The notes beneath the pieces are model-generated. The model had not been told where the DNA came from, made no database searches, and saw only the letters and a list, made by a program, of their open reading frames with translations. Of a DNA stretch of 64,000 bases, positions 3,155-62,827 are shown piece by piece (the first letter of the stretch is position 1; every line of letters starts with the position of its first letter). The translations under genes and the position numbers were made by a program. Source of the DNA: Minisyncoccota bacterium (GTDB lineage Bacteria > Patescibacteriota > Minisyncoccia > UBA6257 > JAGOQP01); the NCBI GenBank assembly GCA_017991375.1, contig JAGOQP010000004.1, positions 6,499-70,498 of the forward strand, written 5' to 3'.

Positions 3155-3337
3155 AAATAAGAATTAAGAAAGAACGGGCACCACGGTATAAATCAACACA
3201 TACTCACTCGCCAAGATATTTTTAGATATCTATATTAAAATAGCAAATTGGTTTTTCTATTATTGACAAACCACCCCATCCAATGTAACGTATAATCGCG
3301 CACTTTGACACAAAGGAAAAAGGAAAGGAGAAGCGCG

Positions 3338-4033
3338 ATGATCAGCAAAGAAAGACATATCGCACTATCATGGAGGATTCCTCTGTTGGTTGGTATGCTC
3401 ACGGGCCTATTTCTTCTTGCACGGTACTTTGTTGCCGGATACATCCCAGGCCTTGCGCCGTATACCCTCAATCCCTTGGGAAGGGTACACAATCTGGCAA
3501 CCACAACACACATGCATGTTTCACCTCCCTCAAGTTGGTTTTATGTTCTTTCTCTCCCAGTGTTCACGTTTTTGTTCATCACATTTCTTCCAATAATAAG
3601 ACATGAGACAGGCCGAGAGAGACCTTGTCGAGGTGGGATCCGCGCTGGTTTGTGTGTGGCGACCATATCTTTTTTGCTCTCACTTGCGTACTGGACTACC
3701 TGCATTGGCTCTAGTGCGCAAATTACACCTCAAGATCTTTTTACTCTCTCTATCTTCTTTTTCACCTTGGCTGGTGTTTCTATACTATCTATCACGAATA
3801 TGATTGAATTGTTCACCGAATCTTCAGGAGAGATTTTTCGCTTTTTTTTCGGGTATGCTATCGGATCTGGGTTTATTGCCGATTTCGTCCTTGGGATTTC
3901 TTATGGGCTCGGGGTCACCGCGCTTATAAGTATCTTAGGGGCTGGAGTAATGTACGCGTCATGTGGAATCGGCCACGTTGTCAGACGTTGCCCTCCACGA
4001 ATATTCCAGTGGTTCCTTGCCACTGACAAGTAG
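3338..4033 (+). CDS. hypothetical polytopic membrane protein
   Basis: The track ORF is 3305..4033. The ATG at 3338 (MISKERHIALSW...) is preceded by aaggaaaggag, a good Shine-Dalgarno sequence, so the start was moved. Several hydrophobic segments; no recognisable family. Confidence 0.45.
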   Translation: MISKERHIALSWRIPLLVGMLTGLFLLARYFVAGYIPGLAPYTLNPLGRVHNLATTTHMHVSPPSSWFYVLSLPVFTFLFITFLPIIRHETGRERPCRGGIRAGLCVATISFLLSLAYWTTCIGSSAQITPQDLFTLSIFFFTLAGVSILSITNMIELFTESSGEIFRFFFGYAIGSGFIADFVLGISYGLGVTALISILGAGVMYASCGIGHVVRRCPPRIFQWFLATDK

Positions 4034-5732: not shown

Positions 5733-7595
5733 TTATTGCATGTTCAAAGCTGATGTCTTCCACACGTTCTCGTCCATAGTCGTGTAGCCCAACGTGCGCG
5801 TTGCGCTCGCTGCCCAACCGACTTTCTGGAGCGTGAAGTGATACAAGCCATCACCAGTTGAGTTGCCCTTATTCATGACAAAGTCAACCGTGATTGTTCC
5901 TGTAACATCCTTCGGCAGTTTGTAGATAGACGTGTCAGATTGCACTTGGAAGTTTGAATCCAACGAGACCAGCTTGCTGGTTGTGGTTGAGTTCGTGTCT
6001 TCTGTGTTTGACTTGTAGATCTTCAAAACTGTTGAAGTTGAAAGATTCAAGAAGTACAAATCGCTTCCACCTGCCTTAACGGTGAAGGTGAACTTACCCG
6101 TGAGTGAGCTGGTTGAAACACCAGATACACCTGGGAAGAATGTCAACGAGGTTGTCGGAGCTGATGCAAACACTGGAGCAACCTTGAAGACGCTCAAGCT
6201 GTCGCTCGTTGCCGAGCCAGTAGCTGTTACTGAGTCGCCCATGCTGTTCTCCGCTGTCACACCTGCTGTCGCTCCAGTTCCTTCAACGTTGATCTTAACG
6301 GTTCCCGTGTATGCGGTTGTTGTCGCGCCACGGAAGTCTCCCTTAATGGTCAACGTCTTTGTTGAATCCTTGTCGACGTATACCTCAACATTGCTGATTG
6401 ATGCTAATCCCGCTGCACTCACTGATCCTGATCCAATGAGGGTTGACCCATCATAGACGTAGATCGTGTTAAGAGCCGGCGATGAACCGCTTGCCCATGT
6501 GGTTGAAGTCACGTTGAATGCAGTGACTTTAATGCGATCATTTTCTGAGCGCAAATCAAATGCCAACAAGGTCGCGGCGCTTACATCTCCCTGGTTGTCA
6601 GAGAGGATGTTTCCGGTCTTTGGTGAGTTGACGTTCTTTGAGATTGTCAACGCAGCTGAGTTTGCCAAGGTCTTCTTAGCAGTAAACGTGCGGCTGAATT
6701 CCGTGGTCGGGCCGTATTGGCTCAAACCAAGTCCGTCAAGTCCGCGAACGCCATTTTGAGGAACCGTCAATGTGTACGTAGTGTTCACATATGACGAATC
6801 AATCGTGGTGTTAACGTCTGCTGCAATGTACAAAACGCGGGTCTCATCCTTCTTTACTAAGAAGTTGAAGCCTGAAATCGTTATGTAGTACGTTGTTCCT
6901 TCTTTAACAATAGTTGAAGAATTTAACGCAACTTCTGCCAACGTTGCCGAACCATCGGTTACGTAGAGGCGATTCAAGATCTTGTTGTAGATCGTGGTTG
7001 CAGTTCCAAGGCTCAACTTCACGCGCTCGATGCTTACATCGCCGAGTGTTGCTTTTGCCTTGATACCCATCACGTTGATCTTTGAATTCCCTTCGTACAC
7101 GTTTGTTCCAGCGGCCGGAGATGGGTTGACTTCAACAGTCAACGAACCTTCTGACTTTGTTGTTGGAACAACAGTTGTTGTTGGGGTCACGGTCGTGGTT
7201 GGGGTGACCGACGTAGCCAAGTAGGCACGCGTCTTTGGTCCAAAGTATCCCGATGCCGGCGTGATTCCAACTGATGCCTGCCATGCTGCCAAGGCTGTTT
7301 TGGTCAAAGGACCAAAGAATCCAGTCGGAGCAGTAATAGCGAGGAATCCTTTTGCAATCAACATTGATTGCAATGATGACACATCGTCTCCCTTTGAACC
7401 CACGGTGAGGTCGCGAGTATATGAGGTTGACGCTGTTGATGTTTGCCCAAGCTGTGCTTGCAAGGTTTGGATCTGAGCCAAGAGGGCCGCGATCTGAGCC
7501 TGCAAATCAGCTGTGCTTTGTGCGTTAACGTTAACTGAAGGGACGAGCACTATTGCCGCCAATGCAACTAACGCAACTTTCTTTAATGAACTCAT
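5733..7595 (-). CDS. secreted Thr/Ser-rich surface protein with N-terminal coiled coil and peptidoglycan-binding (PG_binding_1-like) repeats
   Basis: The start was moved to the internal Met MSSLKKVALVALAAIVLVPSVNVNAQ, a clear signal peptide. This is followed by LQAQIAALLAQIQTLQAQL (coiled coil) and two GYFGP.T..AL..WQ repeats of the PG-binding kind. The next ~450 aa are Thr/Ser/Val-rich beta-type sequence (TPTTTVTPTTTVVPTT...). Confidence 0.6.
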   Translation of the reverse strand: MSSLKKVALVALAAIVLVPSVNVNAQSTADLQAQIAALLAQIQTLQAQLGQTSTASTSYTRDLTVGSKGDDVSSLQSMLIAKGFLAITAPTGFFGPLTKTALAAWQASVGITPASGYFGPKTRAYLATSVTPTTTVTPTTTVVPTTKSEGSLTVEVNPSPAAGTNVYEGNSKINVMGIKAKATLGDVSIERVKLSLGTATTIYNKILNRLYVTDGSATLAEVALNSSTIVKEGTTYYITISGFNFLVKKDETRVLYIAADVNTTIDSSYVNTTYTLTVPQNGVRGLDGLGLSQYGPTTEFSRTFTAKKTLANSAALTISKNVNSPKTGNILSDNQGDVSAATLLAFDLRSENDRIKVTAFNVTSTTWASGSSPALNTIYVYDGSTLIGSGSVSAAGLASISNVEVYVDKDSTKTLTIKGDFRGATTTAYTGTVKINVEGTGATAGVTAENSMGDSVTATGSATSDSLSVFKVAPVFASAPTTSLTFFPGVSGVSTSSLTGKFTFTVKAGGSDLYFLNLSTSTVLKIYKSNTEDTNSTTTSKLVSLDSNFQVQSDTSIYKLPKDVTGTITVDFVMNKGNSTGDGLYHFTLQKVGWAASATRTLGYTTMDENVWKTSALNMQ

Positions 7596-7760
7596 GTTTC
7601 TAAATTTTGTATAGGATTTTCTTGTTTTAGTAATCGTTTCGTTTTTCCTTTTGTGGAAAAACAGTTCAGATAGCACACTCCTCTGCTACCGACCCGCTGC
7701 TTCATCGGTGAGGACGAATCAGCAAGCTAACAGTTAATACGGAATGAGCTCCTGTTTCAT

Positions 7761-7960
7761 TACCGGTCTCTTTGTGGAGACCAGTCTCAAAAATATGGCC
7801 ATATTTTTGAGACTGGTTCCCGCAAAAACAAAAAGCTCACCGGCAAGGTGAGGCAACACAATACAAGGACGGAAAGCCGCGCAAAAAACGCCGTTTCCGT
7901 TGATCAGTGATCGCTTGTATTCTGCCTCACGGTTAGAAGCGATATACTCGCCTAACCACA
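7761..7960. promoter_or_regulatory. highly structured intergenic region (multiple hairpins including a 36-bp perfect palindrome at 7781..7816)
   Basis: ccagtctcaaaaatatgg|ccatatttttgagactgg is a perfect palindrome. Adjacent hairpins are ggtctc-tttgtg-gagacc, ctcacc-ggcaa-ggtgag, acggaaa..tttccgt and ggttag..ctaacc. The region is the ~380-nt stretch upstream of the 5733..7595 gene on the minus strand. Confidence 0.4.
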
Positions 7961-8134
7961 GAACGAAAGCTCTATTTCTACGATGCGCCCATTATACACG
8001 AGTGGGGTATTTTTGTCAATAATCCGACTTTGTGTACACCGGGAAGCACCTCTCTTGGCTTTTAATGTTCAAGCGGCGCCGAGCGCCGTTCGAGAGTATA
8101 AACGAAACACATCCATATCCGTTACGGGTGTGTG

Positions 8135-8974
8135 TTACGCCGTCTTTTGTTTCTTAATACGCAAGAATGATTTAGGGCCACCCGTCCCTACTCGTTCAAT
8201 AATCTTCTTATCAACTAATCGTTGGATATCATACCTCAATGTCCGGTCACTAATCCCTGGAAGTATGTCTTGGATGTCTTTTATGTGGCATAATGTGCGC
8301 TTTTTTAACAAATCAACAATCATCTCCTGTCTTTCAGAAAAATATGCCGCTTTTGGTATTTCATCTACACTTTTGGCCATACTTATTGCCGGACTTTTTT
8401 GTGTCTCTGTTATTTTGGCAGTGTTTATGCCGTCTTTTTCAATATTCTCATTGCCGGACTTTTTATCTTCTTTTATATATGTTGCCGGACTTTTTTGCGA
8501 TGCGTCTATATCAATAGATTTTACGCCACTATTTATCATTTTCTCATTGCCGGACTTTTGTGCTTTTGTTTTCACTTCTTCATCTTTCTCTTCGGATATG
8601 TGCGCAATCATTTTCGCGAACTCCGAAAATATCATAGGTGGTTTTGAAAACATTTCTTCTATAAGAATTCTTTCTTTGCTCCCCTTAGCAACTGTTTCCG
8701 CTTTCTCATACACCATATCCGAGAGGGTTTTTTTAAGCCCGTTTATTTCCCTGAGCAAAACCCCCGCATTGACACTACTTATTTCCCCCACCTCTTGGGT
8801 CAAGCGAACAGCATATTCAAGTTCAGCTAAGGTATCTACCGTTTTTGACCCCATATACGAAAGTGCGACATCTTCAAGATACTTTTGGAGCTGTGGACGA
8901 GAAATATGGGCCGCCACTCGGAACACGGCCCACACCACCTCAAACGATCGTTGTTTAAAAAAATCTGAGGGCAT
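8135..8974 (-). CDS. DNA-binding protein with C-terminal DeoR-type winged-helix HTH and internal short peptide repeats
   Basis: The C-terminus ERQEMIVDLLKKRTLCHIKDIQDILPGISDRTLRYDIQRLVDKKIIERVG is a typical DeoR/wHTH domain. The middle region has repeated KSGNE / QKSPA peptides, encoded by a 4x DNA repeat (ttgccggacttt). The overlapping plus-strand ORF 7983..8981 is low-complexity antisense. Confidence 0.5.
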   Translation of the reverse strand: MPSDFFKQRSFEVVWAVFRVAAHISRPQLQKYLEDVALSYMGSKTVDTLAELEYAVRLTQEVGEISSVNAGVLLREINGLKKTLSDMVYEKAETVAKGSKERILIEEMFSKPPMIFSEFAKMIAHISEEKDEEVKTKAQKSGNEKMINSGVKSIDIDASQKSPATYIKEDKKSGNENIEKDGINTAKITETQKSPAISMAKSVDEIPKAAYFSERQEMIVDLLKKRTLCHIKDIQDILPGISDRTLRYDIQRLVDKKIIERVGTGGPKSFLRIKKQKTA

Positions 8975-9060
8975 AAGATGATCATTAATCGTTAACTATT
9001 AACAACAGGACTGATACTAAAGTACTCTTTGAACGATAACCTCATGCTGATAAACCAGTA

Positions 9061-9541
9061 AAACAAATACTTTTAGGAAGCGGGAAGGTGGGCAAACCAC
9101 CTTCCCATATTTGAACAGAAGCTTCTTACTCTTTTCTTCCTCGAGCGCTTTACAGACCACGATGTATTCAAGATCGTCCGTAGCCTCCGGCTCGTGAAGA
9201 AGTATTGAAAGAGCTTTGGCCTAGTTCGCTGTCGGCTATGACTTGGGTTGGTTTGTTGGTGGCACTTTTGCCTTTTCCTTGTCTGACGTGCCAGCTTCCG
9301 CCTGCGAAATTTCTGGCATATGAAGTCGCATGCCGGTCACGACATCGAGCCCGCCGCTCAAGCTGCACAGACAGGTAAAGCGACCGTGGTCGTCTTGTGG
9401 GAACATTTCTGCCCCACACCGAGGGCATGTCGGCCCGCGCCCATGACGACGCATGTACTGATCAGTTTCATCCCAGTACCCCATGCGACACCTCCTTTGT
9501 TTTGTTATTAGTTTTGAAGCTTCCTAAAAGTACTTGTTTTA
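9061..9541. mobile_element. IR-bounded GC-rich insertion (MITE/IS-remnant-like)
   Basis: The left end aaaacaaatacttttaggaagc (9061..9082) and the right end gcttcctaaaagtacttgtttt (9520..9541) are inverted repeats with 21/22 matches. The interior is about 55% GC against a ~40% background. A strong hairpin, gggaaggtgg-gcaaa-ccaccttccc, sits just inside the left IR. Confidence 0.4.
9236..9484 (-). CDS. small zinc-ribbon-like protein carried on the IR-bounded GC-rich element
   Basis: 82 aa: MGYWDETDQYMRRHGRGPTCPRCGAEMFPQDDHGRFTCLCS..., with a CxxC ... CxC arrangement. A strong SD (aaggaggt) sits 5 nt upstream of the ATG on the minus strand. GC-rich codon usage is unlike the neighbouring genes. 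Confidence 0.45.
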   Translation of the reverse strand: MGYWDETDQYMRRHGRGPTCPRCGAEMFPQDDHGRFTCLCSLSGGLDVVTGMRLHMPEISQAEAGTSDKEKAKVPPTNQPKS

Positions 9542-9840
9542 AAGAGCAATGCATCAAATAACTACCCCACTTGCCACATACACACCCTTCCGTAGTCCAC
9601 CACGGATGGACGTAGAGGGTCCACCCCGGGCCCGTCGAAGAACTACACGCTATCTGCCATAAGCTTATTAGACACGCGCTACATTACCCCTACCATAGAG
9701 CCGATAAAAATAGAAGTCAAGGCATAGCGTATAAGTAACATAAAAGAGCGCCATTTCATCGTTGTGTTATTGTAAAAAATCAATACTCTTTTTTCTTATC
9801 CTATTCTCTCTCCTCTCTATACACACCCTTCATCACCCAT

Positions 9841-9878
9841 TTGACCCCTTTTTTCACGATCGTGAAAAAAGGGGTCAA
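9841..9878. repeat. 38-bp perfect palindrome, copy 1 (TTGACCCCTTTTTTCACGATCGTGAAAAAAGGGGTCAA)
   Basis: Exact palindrome. It has the 5' flank tcatcacccat, which is shared with copy 3. It lies about 50 nt upstream of a TGnTATACT extended -10. Confidence 0.9.
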
Positions 9879-9918
9879 TCATACACTTCTATAAGTTATC
9901 AACACTCATATACATTTT

Positions 9919-10040
9919 TGTGATATACTTTTTAGTATCATGAGAACATTGGCAGAAAATGGTGCGCGCGCCAACACGGTGTGTCAGACATACGTGACCC
10001 CGTAGCATGTTAACGTTCCGCCCCGATGGGCGGTTTTTGT
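9919..10040 (+). ncRNA. candidate small transcript / leader: extended -10 promoter (tgaTATACT, 9921..9929) to intrinsic terminator (10018..10040)
   Basis: A TGnTATACT extended -10 element is followed about 100 nt later by ccgccc-cgat-gggcgg plus tttttgtt. The transcript would contain a 22-codon ORF (MRTLAENGARANTVCQTYVTP*) with no SD. It ends 50 nt before the 10092 gene. Confidence 0.3.
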
Positions 10041-10091
10041 TAATAAAGTCACGCCTCCATTCACTGCTCTATTATAAGTAACACAACATAT

Positions 10092-10661
10092 ATGTTTGAA
10101 GGCGCACAACAAAGCGGAGTCGCTCCGCTATCGCCCACTCCGCAATCACAAACAAAACGATTGTGGAAATTTGTCGGCATGTTTGTCGGGATTATCATTA
10201 TCGCCGCAGGTATTTATTACGGATGGGAGTATTATCTAAGCCCATCGGCGCGCGGGCGCATAGATGCCAGCACTATGCAAAAAAACTACGAACAATTTGC
10301 GCAACAAAAAGCTCAATATGAAGAAGCGATGAAGAACGATACTTATGGAGGGAAAACACCAGAGGAAACGCTTTCTCTGTTTATTTCAGCCCTTGAAAAA
10401 GGCGATGTCGATTTGGCAAGTAGATATTTTCTTATAGGAGAGAAAATTAGCCAGAGCGAATGGCGCGACGGCATACAAAAAATGAAGGACGCAGCACAGT
10501 TGGGATTTATAATAAATGATATAAAGTCATCTGAATTATTGGAAAGGTCGGAAATGCTTAATTACGCAATATTTAGAACAACAAATAAGGAATCGGGGCC
10601 TCATGACATATCGCTTAAACTCAATACGTATTCAAATATTTGGAAAATAGAAAGTTTATAG
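10092..10661 (+). CDS. hypothetical membrane-anchored protein (single N-terminal TM)
   Basis: 189 aa with one N-terminal TM segment (FVGMFVGIIIIAAGIYYGW) and a soluble C-terminal domain. No recognisable motif. It is probably co-transcribed with the nuclease gene. Confidence 0.5.
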   Translation: MFEGAQQSGVAPLSPTPQSQTKRLWKFVGMFVGIIIIAAGIYYGWEYYLSPSARGRIDASTMQKNYEQFAQQKAQYEEAMKNDTYGGKTPEETLSLFISALEKGDVDLASRYFLIGEKISQSEWRDGIQKMKDAAQLGFIINDIKSSELLERSEMLNYAIFRTTNKESGPHDISLKLNTYSNIWKIESL

Positions 10662-10704
10662 AAACCATGCTTTCAGCACATTACAAATATTATATCTACC
10701 ATCT

Positions 10705-13700
10705 ATGCACTCTATTAATTCAAAAAGAGCGTTTTTTGGAGCCCTGGTACTCACTGTGTTATCGGGGCTTTTTTGTTCTCATCCAGCACTCGCCTATCAA
10801 CCACAGACACACCGCTTTATTACCGAGCAAGGCATATCCCTCTATAACAAAAGCCACCCCGATGCTCCTATTTCAGAAAGCGCGATATCGTTTATGACCG
10901 ACGGAGCGCGACGAGAAGACGATCCCCTGCGATGGTTAAACCATTTCTACGATCCGATAAGCAAGAAGGGGCTGAGTCACAACGGAGCGATTGACCCCCT
11001 TTTTCAATTTGGTACATGGGAATCATCAAAGCTGTGGGCACAAGACGAACAGAACCAAAGTCGTATCGTATACTCACCCCTTATCGCGACGATTTTATCT
11101 AGCATCCAACAAAAGCAAGTTGAAAAATTTTTTCCCACATCAATATTTACCTGGGACCGCGCCATTACATATTGGGTAGAAGGAAACATTGAAATGGCTA
11201 TGGTAACGCTCGGTCACGTACTTCATCTTACGCAAGACGCCTCTGTCCCCGACCATACCAGAAACGATCCACATGTTTCCGGAAGTCCTTATGAAGATTT
11301 TGTTGGAAAATCAAATGTATTAAAAACGAATAGCAGTATCATTTCTTTGGCAAAAGAACAGCACAAACCGCTTTCATCCCTTGAGAACGCGTTTGATCAG
11401 ATAGCTCTTTATTCAAATAATAATTTCTACAGTAAAGATACCATTGGCATACAAAGTGGATATGAAGATCCACAGCCAGATTTTTTTCAAAAGGAAGGAA
11501 CGAAATACTTCGGTATTAAAAATGGCATAACAAAAGATTACAAACTATACAAAAGTCTTTTGGGGAAAAGCTATTTCTTAACAAATAATTCATTAATTAC
11601 ATTAGCAGATGAAGATGTCCTCTCCGATTATTGGTCTCTTCTTGGTCCAAAATCAATAGCGAATACAGCTGGGGTAATTGAGTTATTTTTTAAAGAAGCT
11701 CGAGCGGCACAGCGTAATGCCTCTATTAGCCACGAAAAATCATTTTTTGCTCGAATTGTAGACGCCGCAAAAGGAGCTATTATCGACTTATTCTCATCGG
11801 CAACAAATCAAGACGAGGAAATTATCACCATTCCAATCTCAAACACCTCGCCAACTCCGAGCGTAAGCCACCAAGCCACGCCAACACCTTCCAAAACCGT
11901 TGCGCCGACAAAATCGCCAACTCCTTCGCAACCACTAATCACAACATTTCCCACTCGCGCGCGTGTACTGAGAATTATTGATGGAGATACTATTGTACTT
12001 GAAAATAATATAACCGTGCGATATCTGGGAATTGATGCTCCCGAACTGGAGGATAGCACAACAAAGAGTGGGTGTTTGGCGCAAGAATCAAAACAGCGCA
12101 ATACAACACTTGTTAACGGAAAAACAATTTCTCTTGAGTACAGCGGCGAGAAAACCGATTCATTCGGACGATTACTTGCTTATGTCTCTGTCGACAACGC
12201 GCTGGTAAATCAACAACTAGTCCGCGAGGGGTTGGCGTATGCGTATAACTTCAACCACCCTCATCCAAAGGAAATGGTTTTCTCGTCTGCTCAAGAAGCG
12301 GCGCGAAAAGATAAGATTGGGTTATGGGGATCTTCATGCGCACCCACGCCGACGCCATCTCCCTCATCAACACCAAAAATAACTCAAAAGACAACAAAAA
12401 CATCCGCTCCGTCGTGCTCGCTTATTTCCTCTCAAACCCCGTCACATAATCAACTTATTATAAACGAAGTCGCATGGATGGGATCTCCCACAAGCGCCAA
12501 TGACGAATGGATTGAGTTAAAAAACATAGGATCTTTTCCTATTACATTATCGGGATGGTCGCTTGCCACTCAAGATGGGAATCTCCGTATTGATCTTTCA
12601 GAATCAAAGCGACTTGTTATACCTCCTGACCAGTTTGTATTACTCGAACGAACAAATGACGCAAGCGTTCCTACTATCACTGCCGATATTATTTATAGTG
12701 GGGCTCTTTCAAATTCCAACGAGCGTCTTATGCTCTTTGATCCCTCATGCGCTCTTATAGACGACGCGCTCGCGGGATCATCATGGCCAGCTGGGGATAA
12801 CGCGACAAAGCGAACAATGGAACGCGCCCAATCTGGATTTGGATGGCACACATCGCAAGAAAGCGGCGGGACGCCAGGGAGAGAAAATTCATATCAATCT
12901 TTTGGCTCGGGCGGTGGGGGAGGGTCATCGGGGACATCGCCTTCTCCATCGTCATCGCCTACCCCGTCACCATCAGCGTCGCCCTCTCCGTCTCCGACAC
13001 CAACAACGCTACCAAACGTGCGCATCAATGAAATCATGTATAACCCAGCAGGGGCTGATGATGATCACGAATGGATAGAGATATATAACGAAGGATCAAT
13101 TGCTTTTGATGTAACGTCTTTACGTCTTATTGAAAACGAAACGGCGCATATAACTTCCGCAATCGGGCAAACCACTATCGCTCCATTAGAATACGCTATT
13201 ATCGCCGACGACGTAGATACCTTTTTGACTGATCACCCTGGATTTACTGCTCCCGTATTTGATAGTTCTTTTTCTCTGAGCAACGAGGGAGAGTCCCTTT
13301 CTCTTTCATATGACAATCAAATAGTACACAGCGTACCCTATCAAGCTACGTGGGGAGCAAATGGCGATACATCATCGCTTCAATTTATGAATCCGGGATG
13401 GTACGCCTACCAACCGACGCCCGGAAAAGAAAACACGCCCTCACAAGAAATCACATCAGACCCAATATCCGCGTCGACACATATACTAATCAGCGAAATA
13501 CAGGTCGCGGGGGCATCTCCTGATGATGAATTTATTGAACTATACAACCCCACCGATTCATTCATATCACTCCGTGATTATTCCATACAATACATCAGTG
13601 GACGCGCGGAGACACTTTCTGATCCTTATAAGAAAAATTTTCCCGATGATGATCTTATTGCCCCTCATGGGTTTTATTTGCTAGCAAACGGGGGTGGGTT

Positions 13701-15363
13701 ATTTGCTCAAAAAGCCGACATGACATGGAATAGCTTTTCTCTTTCGGGAGAATCAAAGGGAGGAATTATCGTTCTTGTTGCTACCACCACGCCCATCACC
13801 ACACTGGCCACCTATCCCATTATTGACCAAATCGCCTACGGAACACCAATTCTTCAGCCATCAGCAGCGCCACTCCCCGATCCGAGCATGAGCATTGAAC
13901 GAAACGCCCTTATTTCAACAAAATGCTTCATCGCACAAGGCGCCTACCTTTTTAGCGGAAATGGATGCGACACAGACGCAACAAGTGATTTCATAGTCAA
14001 TGAAAATCCTTTTCCACAAGGGTCATCCAATTTAGCAGAACCCAGATCGGGACCAGGATCCCCTATATCATTTGAAGCGTTATATGATCCGAGTACATTT
14101 GTGCTCTCACTCTCATGGATGCCTGCTGACGAAAATAGCTATTATGTTCCAGAAAAATCCATAACCACGAATCCATCTGATGGTTTTATTTCTCTAGGAA
14201 CTACCACTGACTTAACAAGTCAAGCACGAATGATAGACATTGGCTTAGATTACACCATACAAGTTACCGCATATGATGCCGATGGATTTCCTTCTGCACC
14301 GGCGACAACAACTATTTCCATGCCGGGAATGCTTACTCATCTTTATTTTTATGAAACATCTCCGGGATCGGAAGCATATGTTCTTGAGCCAATATTCAAA
14401 ACCTATCCATTCGTTATTGATCCAAACATAAAAGAAGATATCCCCCACTGGAGAGCACTCGCATTTTTTCTTGATCAGCCAACTATATCAGTTATGCCGC
14501 AATATCCGTACGGTAGTATTGAAGGCATAAGTGGCGGGATGCAAATAACCCACCCCACTTGTATAAATCCTGATGGGACCATAGTTACTCAAGCAGTGAC
14601 TTTTCCCGACACGGCTGGTATGTGTGGAAGTGGTGGAGGAATTTTCAACTCAACGTATCCATACGCATTACTTGAAGATAATCGCGTTCGCCTTCCAGTG
14701 GCGCCAGACACTGCCGCTCAAATTACTCCAACGTCTACCGTTATTGTCGCGTTCTTCACCTCGGGAAAATCAACTAACGGCGACGGACGTTATCCTGAAT
14801 TCTTACGTGTAGTGGTCGATCGATTTCCCGTCTCTTTAGGAGAGCCCCCAGAACCACTACCACCAACACCCCCTGTTATTACCACCACTGCCGATAATTT
14901 TGATCCAATCCGTGAGAAATTAGTTGTAACATGGGATGATTCGTCCGATCCCGACTCACTTGATCGTTATATCGCTTATGAATTTCGCGGCGGCGCCTCT
15001 ACTCAACCCATAACCGATTACCCGTGGTTGCCGGCCGTACGCAGTATTGATGGATCAACGTATGTAGAACCAAGCATAGAGGCGCGCCAAGGAGAAACAT
15101 ATGTTATTCATATGCGCGCTGTTGATGAAGACGGGCATTATTCTGATGTTTCCACTATACCTATTTCTATTCCAGCTACAGAGATGCTATTAACGGCGCC
15201 GCTGTTGTTTTCTGCGCCTCCGTTACTGGATGACAAAAATGTGAGTAGCGCATCCAGCACTGACGAATCTATTGTCCAACCAACAACCCCATCTGAGACG
15301 CTACCAGAAAATCCAGCAACCACGCCGGCGCAAAACTCAACAGAAACAGAGGACAATGTATGA
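10705..15363 (+). CDS. giant secreted multidomain nuclease: Zn-dependent PLC/S1-P1-like N-domain + staphylococcal-nuclease (SNase) domain + three lamin-tail domains
   Basis: 1552 aa with a signal peptide. The N-domain has WLNHFYDP...LGHVLHLTQDASVPDHT, matching the zinc ligands of PLC / S1-P1 nucleases. The SNase domain is VLRIIDGDTIVL...VRYLGIDAPE...GRLLAYV...NQQLVREGLAYAY. Three LTDs follow (LIINEVAWMG..DEWIELKN; VRINEIMYNPAG..HEWIEIYN; ILISEIQVAG..DEFIELYN). The domains are separated by PSPSPTPT linkers. Confidence 0.8.
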   Translation: MHSINSKRAFFGALVLTVLSGLFCSHPALAYQPQTHRFITEQGISLYNKSHPDAPISESAISFMTDGARREDDPLRWLNHFYDPISKKGLSHNGAIDPLFQFGTWESSKLWAQDEQNQSRIVYSPLIATILSSIQQKQVEKFFPTSIFTWDRAITYWVEGNIEMAMVTLGHVLHLTQDASVPDHTRNDPHVSGSPYEDFVGKSNVLKTNSSIISLAKEQHKPLSSLENAFDQIALYSNNNFYSKDTIGIQSGYEDPQPDFFQKEGTKYFGIKNGITKDYKLYKSLLGKSYFLTNNSLITLADEDVLSDYWSLLGPKSIANTAGVIELFFKEARAAQRNASISHEKSFFARIVDAAKGAIIDLFSSATNQDEEIITIPISNTSPTPSVSHQATPTPSKTVAPTKSPTPSQPLITTFPTRARVLRIIDGDTIVLENNITVRYLGIDAPELEDSTTKSGCLAQESKQRNTTLVNGKTISLEYSGEKTDSFGRLLAYVSVDNALVNQQLVREGLAYAYNFNHPHPKEMVFSSAQEAARKDKIGLWGSSCAPTPTPSPSSTPKITQKTTKTSAPSCSLISSQTPSHNQLIINEVAWMGSPTSANDEWIELKNIGSFPITLSGWSLATQDGNLRIDLSESKRLVIPPDQFVLLERTNDASVPTITADIIYSGALSNSNERLMLFDPSCALIDDALAGSSWPAGDNATKRTMERAQSGFGWHTSQESGGTPGRENSYQSFGSGGGGGSSGTSPSPSSSPTPSPSASPSPSPTPTTLPNVRINEIMYNPAGADDDHEWIEIYNEGSIAFDVTSLRLIENETAHITSAIGQTTIAPLEYAIIADDVDTFLTDHPGFTAPVFDSSFSLSNEGESLSLSYDNQIVHSVPYQATWGANGDTSSLQFMNPGWYAYQPTPGKENTPSQEITSDPISASTHILISEIQVAGASPDDEFIELYNPTDSFISLRDYSIQYISGRAETLSDPYKKNFPDDDLIAPHGFYLLANGGGLFAQKADMTWNSFSLSGESKGGIIVLVATTTPITTLATYPIIDQIAYGTPILQPSAAPLPDPSMSIERNALISTKCFIAQGAYLFSGNGCDTDATSDFIVNENPFPQGSSNLAEPRSGPGSPISFEALYDPSTFVLSLSWMPADENSYYVPEKSITTNPSDGFISLGTTTDLTSQARMIDIGLDYTIQVTAYDADGFPSAPATTTISMPGMLTHLYFYETSPGSEAYVLEPIFKTYPFVIDPNIKEDIPHWRALAFFLDQPTISVMPQYPYGSIEGISGGMQITHPTCINPDGTIVTQAVTFPDTAGMCGSGGGIFNSTYPYALLEDNRVRLPVAPDTAAQITPTSTVIVAFFTSGKSTNGDGRYPEFLRVVVDRFPVSLGEPPEPLPPTPPVITTTADNFDPIREKLVVTWDDSSDPDSLDRYIAYEFRGGASTQPITDYPWLPAVRSIDGSTYVEPSIEARQGETYVIHMRAVDEDGHYSDVSTIPISIPATEMLLTAPLLFSAPPLLDDKNVSSASSTDESIVQPTTPSETLPENPATTPAQNSTETEDNV

Positions 15364-15419
15364 GATAAAACTACAAGTAAATGAGATACAAAAAACCACT
15401 CGACATCTGAATATTCTCC

Positions 15420-15457
15420 TTGACCCCTTTTTTCACGATCGTGAAAAAAGGGGTCAA
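15420..15457. repeat. 38-bp perfect palindrome, copy 2
   Basis: Identical to copy 1 over all 38 bp. It lies between the nuclease stop (15363) and the 15528 gene. Confidence 0.9.
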
Positions 15458-15527
15458 AAACCGACAAGACCAATGAGCACACCGGCGATCAAACAATCAA
15501 CACACCAACTATTAAAATAAAATCCCT

Positions 15528-16091
15528 ATGATTTACGCACATTCCGCTTGTTATAAATATAAACACAAATACTCGGCATCAATAGCACTTCTTAAATTAC
15601 TTATCGGCTGTGGGCATGTTTCGCTTGATGAATTTTTAAAAAACTCCAACAAAAATTTAACTAAAGACCAATTGTTAAAAAACCGCAAAGCGTATCACAA
15701 AATGATACATAAGTTACACCAAGAGGGGCTCGTCGAAAAAATAGACGACAGAAGAAAATCGCCAGTGAAAGTGGTGTCTGGCAAATTATCTACCCTTAAG
15801 GAAAAGCTACTCAAAAAAGACTTGGCCCAACATACATTGAGAGATGGGGGTCAAAAAAGCATGTTTCCAATAATTGTTGCGTTTGATATACCAGAAAAAT
15901 ATAGAACAAAAAGAGATTTCCTTAGACGATTACTCCAGTCATTAGGGTATCAGATGATACAAAAGAGTGTGTGGATCGGCTATTATAAACTGTCAAAAGA
16001 TTTCATGGACGAGTTAAGAGAAATTAGAATTCTTCCTTATGTTGACGTATTTTCAATAAACCGATCAGGGACTATTAGAAAGTACCAATAA
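15528..16091 (+). CDS. solo winged-helix + Cas2/VapD-like domain protein (putative regulator or nuclease; no cas neighbourhood)
   Basis: 187 aa. The N-terminal half looks like a wHTH (LDEFLKNSNKNLTKDQLLKNRKAYHKMIHKLHQEGLVEKID). The C-terminal half, MFPIIVAFDIPEKYRTKRDFLRRLLQSLGYQMIQKSVWIGYY, follows the Cas2 beta1-alpha1-beta2 pattern (compare YDITDD..RNRVAEFLKKMGKRVQYSVFEC). The first codon in the track may not be the true start. Confidence 0.5.
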   Translation: MIYAHSACYKYKHKYSASIALLKLLIGCGHVSLDEFLKNSNKNLTKDQLLKNRKAYHKMIHKLHQEGLVEKIDDRRKSPVKVVSGKLSTLKEKLLKKDLAQHTLRDGGQKSMFPIIVAFDIPEKYRTKRDFLRRLLQSLGYQMIQKSVWIGYYKLSKDFMDELREIRILPYVDVFSINRSGTIRKYQ

Positions 16092-16129
16092 TCACCACCA
16101 TACTCTGCTTATTTTGTGTCATCACCCAT

Positions 16130-16167
16130 TTGACCCCTTTTTTCACGATCGTGAAAAAAGGGGTCAA
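16130..16167. repeat. 38-bp perfect palindrome, copy 3
   Basis: Identical 38 bp plus the shared 5' flank tcatcacccat, as in copy 1. It lies 39 nt after the stop of the 15528..16091 gene. Confidence 0.9.
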
Positions 16168-61314: not shown

Positions 61315-62688
61315 ATGGACCTTAAGAAGTTGTGGGAAAAGACGCTTTCTGAAATCGAGCTTCAAATTTCAAAGCCCAATTTTCTTACCTGGTTTAAAAA
61401 TAGTCGCCTAATCGAAAAAAACGACCAAACAAACGTTGTTACTATCGGGGTAGGAAATAATTTTGCTAAAGAGTGGATATCAAGTAAGTATAATAAGCTT
61501 ATTTTAGAGCTTTTAAGAGGAGCCGATGATTCTATTCATCATATAAACTATATTGTTTTTACTGAAAACGTTGAGCCCAAAATCTTTTCTCCACAAAAAG
61601 AATCCCCCGCTGTGCCTATTGGTCAGGGAGGATTTTCTGACTTTGCGGTAGATCCCGAGAGTAATCTCCATCCGCGATATACGTTTAAAAATTTTATTGT
61701 TGGTTCATCAAACGAACTAGCGTACGCGGCTTCTTGCGCTGTTGCTAAAGATGTTGGTAAAAGATATAACCCTCTTTTTATTTATGGAGGGACCGGTTTG
61801 GGTAAGACGCATCTTATTCAGGCAATTGGAAATGAAATTATAAAAGCGTTTAAAAATCGCGTTCGCGTTCGTTATATCCCATCTGAAAAATTTGTTAATG
61901 ATATCGTTTGGGCCATCAAGACAAAGCGCATGGAGGATATAAAGAACAAATACCGATCGGTTGATGTTCTTATTATTGATGATATTCAGTTTATCGGAGG
62001 AAAAGAGCGCAGCCAAGAGGAGTTTTTTCACACGTTTAACATGCTTCATCAAAACAATAAACAAATTATCATCTCATCTGATCGTCCTCCATCTCAAATA
62101 TCCACCCTTGAGGAACGTCTTAGATCTCGTTTTGAGGCGGGTATGACTGTTGATATTACCTATCCTGATTATGAGATGAAAATGGCTATTATTAAGAATA
62201 AAAGCCAGGAAAAAGGACTTTCCTTGTTAGATGACGTTGCCCATCTTATTGCCACAAAAATACAAAGAAACGTTAGGGAAATAGAGGGTATTATTAACAA
62301 GTTATATTTTTACAAAGAGTTTAAAAATGTTGATGTTTCAGTAAAAATTGCCGAAGATATTATAAGTGCCACGCTACAACAGACAATGGCAAATGTGAAT
62401 CCCGCCCATATTATCAAGTGCGTTGGTGATTTTTTTGAACTATCAAATAATGAATTAATAAATAAATCCCGTAGAAAAGAAGTTGTTGTTCCACGACAGG
62501 TTGCTATGTTTTTGCTTCGGGATATGTTGGGGATGTCTTATCCTGAAATTGGGGAAAAAATGGGGAAACGCGATCATACTACCGCTATACACTCTTACGA
62601 GAAGATAAGTAAAGAAATAGTGCATAATAAAAACCTTAACCAAAAAATTGTTCTTATTAAAGAATTAGTTAATAAAAACTCTTCTTAA
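61315..62688 (+). CDS. dnaA: chromosomal replication initiator DnaA
   Basis: The AAA+ domain has Walker A (GGTGLGKTHL) and Walker B (VLIIDDIQF). Sensor motifs and the C-terminal DNA-binding domain IV (VAMFLLRDMLGMSYPEIG...RDHTTAIHS) are present. Confidence 0.9.
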   Translation: MDLKKLWEKTLSEIELQISKPNFLTWFKNSRLIEKNDQTNVVTIGVGNNFAKEWISSKYNKLILELLRGADDSIHHINYIVFTENVEPKIFSPQKESPAVPIGQGGFSDFAVDPESNLHPRYTFKNFIVGSSNELAYAASCAVAKDVGKRYNPLFIYGGTGLGKTHLIQAIGNEIIKAFKNRVRVRYIPSEKFVNDIVWAIKTKRMEDIKNKYRSVDVLIIDDIQFIGGKERSQEEFFHTFNMLHQNNKQIIISSDRPPSQISTLEERLRSRFEAGMTVDITYPDYEMKMAIIKNKSQEKGLSLLDDVAHLIATKIQRNVREIEGIINKLYFYKEFKNVDVSVKIAEDIISATLQQTMANVNPAHIIKCVGDFFELSNNELINKSRRKEVVVPRQVAMFLLRDMLGMSYPEIGEKMGKRDHTTAIHSYEKISKEIVHNKNLNQKIVLIKELVNKNSS

Positions 62689-62827
62689 TTTTATTGCTTT
62701 TTATCCACACTCTTTTCCACATATTATTATTTAATTATCCTGTATATTTATTCGTTTATTTCTAGTTATTCCCATTATCCACACCTTCTATAACTACTAC
62801 TATATTTATATATAAGAACACATACAT
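62689..62827. promoter_or_regulatory. oriC-like dnaA-dnaN spacer with DnaA boxes and AT-rich unwinding region
   Basis: TTATCCACA occurs at 62701..62709 and 62775..62783 (both perfect). TTTTCCACA is at 62713..62721. The AT-rich tract tactatatttatatataag lies at 62795..62815. Confidence 0.6.

What the first reader, a model, noticed from the sequence alone, without database searches (positions are those of the whole stretch)
9841..16167. Three identical 38-bp perfect palindromes (TTGACCCCTTTTTTCACGATCGTGAAAAAAGGGGTCAA) bracketing a nuclease module and a solo Cas2-like gene
Exact copies lie at 9841..9878, 15420..15457 and 16130..16167. Each sits in an intergenic gap: before the 10092 gene plus the 1552-aa nuclease, between the nuclease and the wHTH-Cas2-like gene, and after it. 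Copies 1 and 3 also share an extra 11-nt 5' flank (tcatcacccat) and a similar atacac 3' flank. They therefore look like direct-repeat boundaries of a ~6.3-kb unit. There is no U-tract after any copy, so they are not canonical intrinsic terminators. The sequence contains a TTGAC(C) -35-like hexamer, and copy 1 lies about 50 nt upstream of an extended -10. Plausible roles are operators for the adjacent wHTH-Cas2-like protein, recombination or attachment sites of a mobile cassette, or REP-like elements. Exact conservation of 38 bp three times in 6 kb argues for recent duplication or strong selection.
Basis: seen in the sequence. Interest (0 to 1): 0.8.

Follow-up and report, generated by a model that had tools for sequence, protein, structure and literature searches.

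The report
Palindromic sites bracketing a Cas2-like regulator gene
The three identical 38-bp palindromes are most likely the DNA-binding sites of the small "Cas2-like" DNA-binding protein encoded between two of them, and the same gene-between-two-palindromes layout turned up in every related bacterial genome examined, which appears not to have been described before.

Summary
There are three exact copies of the 38-bp perfect palindrome at 9841, 15420 and 16130, and no others, not even degenerate ones, in the 64 kb. The source is a CPR bacterium ("Candidatus Pacebacteria" MAG).

The gene 15528-16091 encodes a ~190-aa PadR-like winged-helix plus Cas2-like (Pfam PaaX_M) protein. It belongs to a large CPR family (at least 810 clusters at 50% identity) that is often mislabelled "Cas2".

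The key result is comparative. I examined 13 such genes in 12 distinct loci. Twelve have a ~38-bp palindrome on both sides; the thirteenth has a clear one upstream and an indel-containing one downstream. The arms differ completely between lineages, but the core ACGA|TCGT is almost invariant and the length is conserved. Dyad symmetry is strictest at positions 1-4 and 13-18 from the centre. This geometry (TTGACC-N26-GGTCAA) matches the published E. coli PaaX operator (TGATTC-N27-GAATCA).

Such palindromes are rare away from these genes, so this is not a generic REP. I found no mobility signal and no RNA-strand bias.

Best reading: these are cognate operator sites of a self-bracketing "mini-PaaX" repressor, and this genome carries one extra site upstream of the secreted-nuclease operon. 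The proposed 6.3-kb mobile unit is not supported. The mechanism is inferred, not shown.

The parts
9841..9878 (.). Palindrome copy 1 (TTGACCCCTTTTTTCACGA|TCGTGAAAAAAGGGGTCAA). An extra site 5.6 kb from the regulator gene, upstream of a short leader or small transcript and of the 10092/nuclease operon.
   Evidence: Exact match, 0 expected by chance. Perfect 19-bp arms. Core ACGATCGT as in all homologous loci.
9830..9840 (+). 11-nt flank TCATCACCCAT, shared in register with 16119-16129. It indicates that copies 1 and 3 derive from duplication of a segment of at least 49 bp, or that the site has a one-sided extension.
   Evidence: the only significant flank similarity among the three copies.
15420..15457 (.). 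Palindrome copy 2. It lies 57 nt after the nuclease stop codon and ends 70 nt before the regulator's ATG. This is the 'upstream' bracketing site.
   Evidence: An upstream palindrome is present at all 13 family genes (one is cut by a contig end).
15528..16091 (+). Gene for a 187-aa PadR-like winged-helix + Cas2-like (PaaX_M) protein ('mini-PaaX'). It is the predicted binder of the palindromes.
   Evidence: Pfam PaaX_M 7e-15 and CRISPR_Cas2 2e-5; TIGR01573 30.5 bits against a cutoff of 24.5. AF2 model: wHTH 17-82, helix 84-105, ferredoxin-like fold 110-185. Foldseek: Cas2 proteins score best, PaaX-family structures match over the full length. F119, D120, P122, E123, R133 and S147 are invariant in 120 homologues.
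16130..16167 (.). Palindrome copy 3. It starts 39 nt after the regulator's stop codon, between convergent genes. This is the 'downstream' bracketing site.
   Evidence: A downstream palindrome starts at or just after the stop codon (sometimes overlapping it) at 12 of 13 family genes, with an indel-containing one at the 13th.
10092..10661 (+). 189-aa protein with an N-terminal hydrophobic segment and no reliable family match. First gene of the unit bracketed by copies 1 and 2.
   Evidence: only sub-threshold hits.
10705..15363 (+). 1552-aa protein with an N-terminal signal-peptide-like segment, a staphylococcal-nuclease domain and three lamin-tail domains. Candidate regulated target.
   Evidence: Pfam SNase 6e-19 and LTD 4e-37. 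NCBIfam thermonuclease. PADLOC 'SNc+LTD' 1e-23.
9919..10040 (+). Promoter-like extended -10 (TGATATACT, 9921-9929), a 21-codon ORF (9940-10005) and an intrinsic terminator (stem 10018-10033 plus T5). This is a short transcript or leader between copy 1 and gene 10092.
   Evidence: Sequence. Terminator scan. No Rfam family. Fold not better than shuffles (z = -0.9).

Best explanation
The 38-bp palindromes are the cognate double-stranded DNA sites of the protein encoded at 15528-16091. That protein is a ~190-aa PaaX-like repressor reduced to a PadR-type winged helix, a long helical spacer and a Cas2-like dimerisation domain.

Inferred mechanism: a dimer sits on the dyad. The conserved Cas2-like core lies over the invariant ACGA|TCGT. 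The two variable winged helices read the lineage-specific outer half-sites (here TTGACC/GGTCAA), which lie about 31 bp, or three helical turns, apart. This is the same wide-spaced geometry as the E. coli PaaX operator.

One site lies upstream and one immediately downstream of the regulator's own gene. Together they would form a self-contained autoregulatory unit, working by promoter occlusion or looping upstream and by roadblock or insulation downstream. In this genome a third, duplicated site upstream of the leader and secreted SNase-LTD nuclease operon probably places that unit under the same control.

Shown: the gene-site association, the conserved length and core, the arm turnover with maintained symmetry, and the fold. 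Inferred: binding itself, which domain contacts which part of the site, repression, and control of the nuclease.
For: 1. Association. I examined 13 family genes in 12 distinct loci from different CPR lineages (28-39% identity to the window protein where listed). Twelve have a palindrome on both sides and the thirteenth has an indel-containing one downstream. This holds whatever the orientation of the neighbouring genes. In random 150-bp windows more than 1 kb from these genes, a centre with at least 15 of 20 symmetric positions occurs in 1.1%. In the flanks it occurs at 9 of 13 (upstream) and 8 of 13 (downstream). Of 40 such centres in 208 kb, 20 lie within 260 bp of these genes, and these carry the ACGATCGT core or a one-base variant of it.

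2. Site anatomy. Across 27 sites, 91.6% of positions are complementary, against 56% in shuffles and 32-46% when slid. Both-sided changes occur at 18 of 19 pairs. Symmetry ends at position 19-20 in all lineages. It is highest at positions 1-4 and 13-18 and dips at 5-7, so the site is bipartite.

3. Geometry. It equals the published PaaX operator TGATTC(N27)GAATCA (PMC9493321).

4. Protein. It has a wHTH plus a Cas2-like fold. Full-length structural matches go to the PaaX-family structures 3kfw and 8a39. The Cas2-like half is highly conserved and the wHTH half is variable, which mirrors the conserved core and variable arms of the sites.

5. Paralogues. Paralogues with 61% identity share arm sequences (L014). 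Two homologues with 36% identity, probably from one MAG, have unrelated arms.

6. Promoter context. In most other lineages a -10-like hexamer lies within or just after the right arm of the upstream site (no control run).

7. Strand bias. Mismatches show no strand bias (G:T 15 against A:C 12), as expected for a duplex site.
Against: No binding data exist. The downstream site usually lies between convergent genes, where there is no promoter to control. It sometimes overlaps the stop codon, which an operator does not require.

In most loci the only detectable sites are the two around the gene itself. That is odd for a regulator of other genes and fits a self-contained or selfish module equally well.

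In this window the upstream sites sit about 75-90 bp before the nearest -10-like elements, not over them.

The three L010 sites differ at positions 6-12, yet each is internally symmetric. This is not explained by protein contacts. It needs either hairpin selection or quasipalindrome template-switch correction, a known mutational process (general knowledge, not tested here).

The invariant Asp at the end of strand 1 (D120) aligns, by model coordinates, with the N-terminal strand of Cas2 that carries its conserved metal-binding Asp (the identity of that residue is from general knowledge, and no residue-level alignment was made). The domain may therefore be catalytic and not merely structural.
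Confidence: 0.55

Rival explanations
1. Boundaries of a selfish or recombining cassette. The wHTH-Cas2-like protein would act as a nuclease or recombination factor on the two palindromes flanking its own gene, extruded as cruciforms or single-strand hairpins. The unit would then be a minimal mobile or excisable element, and extra palindromes would bracket neighbouring 'cargo' such as the nuclease operon.
For: The protein's only consistent sites are the two ends of its own gene, independent of neighbour orientation. Synteny is not conserved between lineages. Paralogues occur in one contig, each with its own bracket (L014). Tandem pal-gene-pal-gene-pal arrangements occur (window; L014 3217/3879/4456). 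The Cas2-type Asp is invariant. Arms are perfectly self-complementary even at positions that vary between sites of one locus (L010). Copies 1 and 3 were duplicated together with 11 nt of flank.
Against: The same protein sits in the same context in every place returned (P0003: 14 contigs read, 4 places shown; P0059: 24 read, 4 shown; P0024: 7 read, 3 shown). I saw no target-site duplication or significant flank similarity beyond the 11-mer. There are no relatives in 2.9 million viral contigs. Copy number is low. No transposase or integrase is consistently adjacent; one tyrosine recombinase in L012 is the only case. Cas2-fold proteins are not known recombinases (general knowledge).
Confidence: 0.15
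2. RNA-level hairpins. The palindromes would be transcribed and would act as U-tract-less terminators, as 3'/5' stabilising stem-loops, or as processing sites for a Cas2/VapD-like ribonuclease, with the conserved GAUC as the loop.
For: The predicted hairpin is strong (-27 kcal/mol, 17-18 bp). Copies sit where terminators are expected: after the nuclease gene and after the regulator gene, neither of which has another terminator. Downstream copies abut or overlap stop codons in several loci. The pattern of conserved 'loop' plus covarying 'stem' fits. Some Cas2 and VapD proteins are reported RNases (general knowledge; the PDB titles include 'RNA'se SSO8090').
Against: There is no excess of G:U-compatible over A:C mismatches on the sense strand (15 against 12 overall). 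By hand count the figures are about 9:9 upstream and 7:3 downstream. The upstream copies in L007, L009, L012 and L013 lie between divergent genes, where no terminator is needed. Canonical hairpin-plus-T-run terminators exist in this genome (10018-10040), so the palindromes are a distinct class. Symmetry is strictest at the outer end and dips near the core, the opposite of what stem fraying would give. No Rfam family matches.
Confidence: 0.12
3. A generic REP-like intergenic repeat of this genome, or a neutral recent triplication, with no specific link to the neighbouring genes.
For: Three 100%-identical copies indicate recent copying or gene conversion. The rest of the genome could not be examined: the source MAG is absent from the searchable collections.
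Against: All copies in the 64 kb lie within 6.3 kb, and there are no degenerate copies or solo half-sites. The same architecture recurs around homologous genes in 11 other loci, with a different arm sequence in nearly every lineage. Neither a lineage-specific REP nor a neutral duplication can explain that.
Confidence: 0.04

Closest known systems
E. coli / Pseudomonas PaaX repressor and its operators (phenylacetate catabolon)
   Same: The architecture is a winged helix followed by the Cas2-like middle (dimerisation) domain (Pfam PaaX_M; structural matches to 8a39 and 3kfw). The operator is a pair of 6-bp inverted half-sites about 27 bp apart, total about 39 bp (PMC9493321), against TTGACC-N26-GGTCAA here. 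PaaX represses its own promoter (same paper).
   Different: There is no PaaX C-terminal domain (said in PMC9493321 to bind the inducer), and no Pfam PaaX N- or C-terminal match in 120 members. No paa genes are nearby. The Cas2-type FDIPE motif is retained. The site has an invariant ACGATCGT core and is a full-length palindrome. Sites bracket the regulator gene on both sides, which to my knowledge is not described for PaaX.
CRISPR-associated Cas2
   Same: The C-terminal 75 residues have the Cas2 ferredoxin-like fold. The best structural matches are type II-A and other Cas2 proteins. The score exceeds the TIGR01573 cutoff, hence the database name 'CRISPR-associated endonuclease Cas2'. The flanking repeats are palindromic and of CRISPR-repeat size (38 bp).
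   Different: The window has no CRISPR array, and no cas1 lies among the neighbouring genes here or in any homologous locus. The protein is fused to a wHTH. The 'repeats' are separated by a 0.7-kb gene, not by spacers.
REP elements flanking RAYT (REP-associated tyrosine transposase) genes
   Same: A single-copy gene is bracketed by the short palindromes that its product presumably recognises, with a few extra copies nearby.
   Different: The gene is not an HUH/Y1 transposase. The palindromes are not highly repeated or dispersed in the sequence available. There is no conserved GTAG-type 5' tetranucleotide. The conserved part is the dyad centre.
Autoregulated type II toxin-antitoxin operators, and VapD (a Cas2 homologue) toxins
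   Same: A nuclease-fold domain related to VapD/Cas2 is coupled to a DNA-binding domain, with palindromic sites at its own gene. The module appears to be self-contained.
   Different: It is a single fused polypeptide with no partner gene. Sites lie on both sides of the gene. No toxicity or RNase activity is known.
Recombinase core sites (loxP/FRT, dif/pdif modules, integron attC)
   Same: The anatomy is two inverted arms around an 8-bp central region, and identical sites bracket gene modules.
   Different: No tyrosine or serine recombinase is consistently linked. The central region is itself palindromic, so the site has no polarity, and it is conserved across lineages. There is no evidence of rearrangement.

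Membership tests
PaaX-family transcriptional repressor | Central Cas2-like (PaaX_M) domain | tested here: met
   PF20803 at 7e-15 (55 bits, cutoff 24). 120 of 120 homologues match.
PaaX-family transcriptional repressor | N-terminal winged-helix DNA-binding domain | tested here: met
   AF2 model: three helices plus a beta-hairpin wing at 17-82. Weak PadR/MarR/HTH_45 matches. However, the PaaX N-terminal Pfam model is not matched.
PaaX-family transcriptional repressor | C-terminal helical (inducer-binding) domain PaaX_C | tested here: not met
   The protein ends after the Cas2-like domain (187 aa). No PaaX_C match in 120 members.
PaaX-family transcriptional repressor | Operator of two 6-bp inverted half-sites about 27 bp apart | tested here: met
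   TTGACC-N26-GGTCAA. Symmetry peaks at positions 13-18 in 27 sites. Published operator TGATTC(N27)GAATCA. Binding itself was not tested.
PaaX-family transcriptional repressor | Linkage to phenylacetate (paa) catabolic genes | tested here: not met
   No paa genes among the neighbours in the window or in 11 other loci.
CRISPR-Cas adaptation protein Cas2 | Cas2 fold and sequence signature | tested here: met
   TIGR01573 at 30.5 bits against a cutoff of 24.5. PF09827 at 25.0 against 23.8. Cas2 proteins are the top Foldseek hits.
CRISPR-Cas adaptation protein Cas2 | Adjacent cas1 and a CRISPR array | tested here: not met
   No regularly spaced repeats in the 64 kb. Neighbouring genes are not cas genes here or in any homologous locus. 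The remaining ORFs of the window were not all scanned.
REP / REPIN-RAYT system | High-copy, genome-dispersed extragenic palindromes | tested here: not met
   3 copies in 64 kb, all within 6.3 kb, with none degenerate. 3-4 remote sites in about 190 kb of other loci. The whole genome is not available.
REP / REPIN-RAYT system | Flanked gene encodes a Y1 HUH transposase | tested here: not met
   Pfam and NCBIfam show only PaaX_M/Cas2 and wHTH.
Intrinsic (Rho-independent) terminator | GC-rich hairpin followed by a U-tract | tested here: not met
   The hairpin is present (-27 kcal/mol) but there is no T-run after any copy. None was reported by the terminator scan.
Integron attC cassette array | IntI integrase nearby; imperfect attC with conserved R'/R'' boxes and extrahelical bases | tested here: not met
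   No integrase next to the sites in the window. The sites are perfect palindromes without the attC consensus (sequence).
Mobile element with terminal inverted repeats | Target-site duplication, multiple copies, variable insertion context | tested here: not met
   No TSD or flank similarity apart from the 11-mer of copies 1 and 3. The context is identical in all places returned for three homologues. None found in viral contigs.

The most novel reading that the evidence does not exclude
The palindrome-gene-palindrome unit is not a mere autoregulated repressor. It would be a previously unrecognised CPR-wide module in which a catalytically competent Cas2 homologue, guided by its own wHTH, nicks or cleaves the invariant ACGATCGT core of CRISPR-repeat-sized palindromes flanking its gene. 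That would make it a minimal self-acting (mobile, excisable or defence/addiction) element. It would also be a living example of a Cas2-plus-palindromic-repeat association outside CRISPR, relevant to how Cas2 and repeats came together.
Probability: 0.12. Interest if true: 0.9.

Novelty: new variant of a known kind. Interest (0 to 1): 0.65.

Why it matters
Transcription-factor/operator pairs in the Candidate Phyla Radiation are, as far as I know, largely uncharacterised, because most of these organisms are uncultured. Here a large family (at least 810 clusters at 50% identity) comes with its predicted sites attached to each gene. Every genome therefore supplies a matched protein-site pair. That makes a recognition code (wHTH residues against outer half-site bases) and the role of the Cas2-like dimer directly testable in vitro.

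It also corrects a widespread mis-annotation: these proteins are named 'CRISPR-associated endonuclease Cas2' in genomes that show no CRISPR context. In this genome it suggests how a secreted SNase-LTD nuclease, plausibly a DNA-scavenging enzyme of an episymbiont, could be controlled. If the conserved Cas2-type Asp proves to be catalytic, the module would be a new kind of self-acting element linking Cas2 to palindromic repeats.

Tried and rejected
1. I scanned GTDB genomes, JGI metagenomes and IMG/VR for the palindrome with a relaxed loop. This found only two unrelated hairpins (L001, L002). The source MAG is not in these collections, and its protein is not in the contig index.

2. I looked for family members in viral contigs and found none.

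3. Rfam at gathering thresholds on the whole window, and at E<=1 around copy 1, gave only sub-threshold miRNA and XIST hairpin artefacts.

4. I tested for an RNA-strand signature (G:U against A:C mismatches) and found no bias.

5. I tested for extended flank homology or target-site duplication among the copies. Only the 11-mer of copies 1 and 3 is shared.

6. I searched the window for a decayed second regulator gene upstream of copy 1, using tblastn and a family HMM on six frames. There is none. The weak hit at 3292-3396 has no Pfam support.

7. I looked for solo half-sites or extra sites in the loci. There are almost none.

8. The palindromic CGATCG at 61956 turned out to be inside dnaA and is a chance match.

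9. Strain-level comparison of palindromes (L003-6, L015-18, L019-21) found the sequences nearly identical, with one SNP, so it was uninformative for compensatory change.

10. The promoter scan is uninformative: matches equal the shuffle expectation.

Full report
OBSERVATION. The 38-mer TTGACCCCTTTTTTCACGATCGTGAAAAAAGGGGTCAA occurs exactly three times in the window, at 9841-9878, 15420-15457 and 16130-16167. Allowing up to 3 mismatches gives no further matches, and none of 100 dinucleotide-preserving shuffles gave any. Each copy is a perfect palindrome with 19-bp arms and no spacer. Copies 1 and 3 also share the 11 nt TCATCACCCAT directly 5' of the palindrome, in register. The 3' similarity is not significant. 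Searches with one half-site (up to 3 mismatches) or with TTGACC-N26-GGTCAA (up to 1 mismatch) find nothing else in the 64 kb. None of the copies is followed by a T-run, and none was called as a terminator.

CONTEXT. The window comes from a CPR bacterium. The product of 15528-16091 is 100% identical to MBP6855688.1 from a 'Candidatus Pacebacteria/Paceibacterota' MAG. The dnaA-dnaN region lies at 61.3-63.9 kb. Copies 1 and 2 bracket a 189-aa gene with an N-terminal hydrophobic segment (10092-10661). They also bracket a 1552-aa protein with a signal-peptide-like N-terminus, a staphylococcal-nuclease domain and three lamin-tail domains. This architecture matches the PADLOC model 'SNc+LTD'. Copies 2 and 3 bracket the 187-aa gene. 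Downstream lies a convergent HtrA-like protease gene. There is no CRISPR array in the window.

THE PROTEIN. It matches Pfam PaaX_M ('PaaX central Cas2-like domain', 7e-15). More weakly, it matches Cas2 models, just above their cutoffs. This explains its database name, 'CRISPR-associated endonuclease Cas2'. The AlphaFold2 model was built from a 120-sequence alignment (mean pLDDT 78.5, above 93 in the C-terminal domain). [quoted passage not shown] Foldseek against the PDB ranks Cas2 proteins first for the C-terminal domain. The PaaX-family structures 3kfw and 8a39 align over 145-168 columns. The family is large and uniform. The best 150 hits are all single-domain-pair proteins of 174-214 aa, with 810 clusters (50% identity) at E<=1e-30 and 3271 at E<=1e-10. 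A word-indexed search gave 2688 proteins at E<=1e-5, and the organism names given are CPR/Patescibacteria. All 120 aligned members hit PaaX_M, 115 hit Cas2, and some hit PadR-like wHTH models. None hits the PaaX N- or C-terminal models. F119, D120, P122, E123, R133 and S147 are invariant, and the N-terminal wHTH half is much more variable.

THE DECISIVE COMPARISON. I retrieved the DNA around homologues from eleven other loci (L003, L007-L015, L019). One of these (L014) carries two family genes, so with the window there are 13 genes in 12 loci. Twelve genes have a palindrome of about 38 bp on both sides. The upstream copy of L008 is cut by the contig end, and several copies are imperfect. The thirteenth gene, the second one in L014, has a clear palindrome upstream and an indel-containing one downstream. 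The arms are unrelated between lineages, but the centre is ACGA|TCGT in nearly all. One-base variants are CGGTCG, CGACCG and CGGCCG, and L009 has TGATCA.

CGATCG sites fall into two classes. Those next to these genes have 13-20 of 20 flanking positions symmetric; the single exception is the indel-containing site downstream of the second L014 gene. Those elsewhere have 4-10, with three exceptions: the extra sites at window 9859 and L014 4456, and a chance case inside dnaA.

The association is strong. In 208 kb, 20 of the 40 centres with at least 15 of 20 symmetric positions lie within 260 bp of the 13 genes. Only 1.1% of random 150-bp windows reach that score.

On a centre-anchored, ungapped alignment of 27 sites, 91.6% of cells are complementary. 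The figure is 56% in shuffles and 32-46% when partners are slid. Eighteen of 19 pairs change on both sides. Symmetry stops at position 19-20 in every lineage. It is nearly complete at positions 1-4 and 13-18 and dips at 5-7. The sites therefore share a conserved length, an invariant core and lineage-specific, strictly symmetric outer half-sites.

WHAT THIS RESEMBLES. The published E. coli PaaX operator is TGATTC(N27)GAATCA, and PaaX represses its own promoter (PMC9493321). The site here is TTGACC-N26-GGTCAA, which has the same wide-spaced geometry. The outer half-sites are about 31 bp apart, or three helical turns, and so lie on one face of the DNA. The conservation pattern of the protein mirrors that of the site: the Cas2-like domain is conserved and the wHTH is variable, just as the core is conserved and the arms are variable. 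From this I infer that the Cas2-like dimer sits on the dyad and that the wHTH domains read the ends, held apart by the long helix.

Two further points are consistent with this. Two paralogues with 61% identity in L014 share arm sequences. P0059 and P0067 have 36% identity and are probably from one Liptonbacteria MAG, judged by neighbouring accessions but unverified; their arms are unrelated. In most other lineages a -10-like hexamer lies in or just after the right arm of the upstream site. This fits promoter occlusion, but I ran no control for it.

WHAT DOES NOT FIT A SIMPLE OPERATOR. First, the downstream site usually lies between convergent genes and may overlap the stop codon, so it controls no promoter. 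Second, in most loci the only detectable sites are the two around the gene itself. Extra sites are few: window copy 1, L014 4456 (after a hydrogenase-protease-like gene), L013 3144, and L019 18452 (same outer half-sites, different core). Third, in this window the upstream sites are centred about 75-90 bp before the nearest -10-like elements. Fourth, the three L010 sites differ at positions 6-12 yet each stays self-complementary. That needs either hairpin or cruciform selection or quasipalindrome template-switch correction, a known mutational process (general knowledge). Fifth, by model coordinates the invariant D120 falls in the N-terminal strand of Cas2 that carries its conserved metal-binding Asp (general knowledge for the Cas2 residue), so catalysis cannot be excluded.

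RIVALS. The generic-REP reading is contradicted by the clustering of copies and by the family-wide association.

The RNA-hairpin or terminator reading has some support. The hairpin is strong (-27 kcal/mol) and sits where terminators would be expected. Against it, there is no G:U-over-A:C bias (15:12). Four upstream copies lie between divergent genes. Canonical terminators exist elsewhere in this genome. The symmetry profile is the reverse of stem fraying.

The mobile or recombining cassette reading fits the self-bracketing, the lack of conserved synteny, the tandem pal-gene-pal-gene-pal arrangements and the duplicated 11-nt flank. However, for three homologues every place returned has the same context. 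There is no target-site duplication, no viral occurrence and no linked recombinase, apart from one tyrosine recombinase in L012.

THE 6.3-KB UNIT. The conserved unit is the 0.7-kb regulator gene between copies 2 and 3. Copy 1 is an extra site that was copied together with at least 11 nt of the flank of copy 3, or the reverse.

Between copy 1 and gene 10092 lie a promoter-like TGATATACT (9921-9929), a 21-codon ORF (9940-10005) and a strong intrinsic terminator (10018-10040). Copy 1 may therefore control a short transcript or leader and not the nuclease promoter directly. This remains open.

VERDICT. It is a CPR-wide 'mini-PaaX' gene bracketed by its own 38-bp palindromic sites, with one extra site next to a secreted nuclease operon in this genome. 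I put about 0.85 on the palindromes being the cognate sites of this protein. I put 0.55 on the specific operator/autorepressor mechanism. I found no description of this architecture in the searchable literature. I rate it a new variant of a known kind (a PaaX-type repressor and operator). There is a minority chance (about 0.12) that it is a self-acting Cas2-homologue/palindrome element of a new kind.

Noticed in passing
window 9919-10040: A promoter-like extended -10 (TGATATACT) is followed by a 21-codon ORF (MRTLAENGARANTVCQTYVTP) and a strong intrinsic terminator (CCGCCC-CGAT-GGGCGG + T5), just before gene 10092. It could be a small RNA, a small protein or an attenuating leader of the nuclease operon. 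No Rfam match, and the fold is no better than shuffles.
   Followed up: partly
window 9059-9541: 23-bp inverted repeats (TAAAACAAATACTTTTAGGAAGC / GCTTCCTAAAAGTACTTGTTTTA, 96% complementary) flank a 437-bp GC-richer segment. The segment holds small minus-strand ORFs (9236-9484, with a weak zinc-ribbon hit at E 0.014). This may be a miniature inverted-repeat element or a small-gene cassette in the otherwise ORF-poor gap 8981-9841.
   Followed up: partly
window 7771-7826: A 56-bp near-perfect palindrome (28-nt arms, 89% complementary, centre TGG|CCA) lies in the divergent intergenic region between 5733-7676 (-) and 7983-8981 (+). It is unrelated in sequence to the three copies. It could be an operator or a bidirectional element.
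   Followed up: no
window 61315-63946: dnaA (61315-62688) and dnaN (62828-63946) follow rnpA/yidC/jag-like genes, and GC falls to 34-38%. The chromosomal origin region is therefore at the right end of the window, about 45 kb from the palindromes. The palindromic CGATCG at 61956 is inside dnaA and is a chance match.
   Followed up: partly
window 10705-15363: The SNase + lamin-tail-domain part of the 1552-aa protein matches the PADLOC model C3a212 'SNc+LTD' (1e-23). The same architecture is therefore listed among candidate defence-associated proteins, although here a secreted DNA-scavenging role seems at least as likely.
   Followed up: no
loci L003, L007, L010, L011, L015 and the window: Neighbours of the family genes often have DNA-uptake or DNA-processing functions: ComEC (L007), type IV pilus/T2SS genes (L010, L011), a TrwB-like coupling protein (L003), DNA ligase (L011), TatD DNase (L015), and the SNase nuclease (window). 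This could be chance in small CPR genomes. I did not test it statistically.
   Followed up: no
L003 6636-6665: Directly after the downstream palindrome, the outer half-site motif CTTACTAAA recurs as extra direct repeats (GACCTTACTAAACCTTACTC). This looks like iterated protein-binding half-sites.
   Followed up: no
L002 600-730 (JGI contig Ga0214917_10033978): An unrelated contig, picked up by the relaxed pattern, carries several adjacent short palindromic hairpins (a REP-like cluster). It is not related to the finding.
   Followed up: no
window 8379-8560: Four copies of a 21-nt motif (ATACTTATTGCCGGACTTTTT-like) at alternating 65/31-nt spacing lie inside ORF 7983-8981 (332 aa, no Pfam match). 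This is presumably a repeated peptide segment.
   Followed up: no
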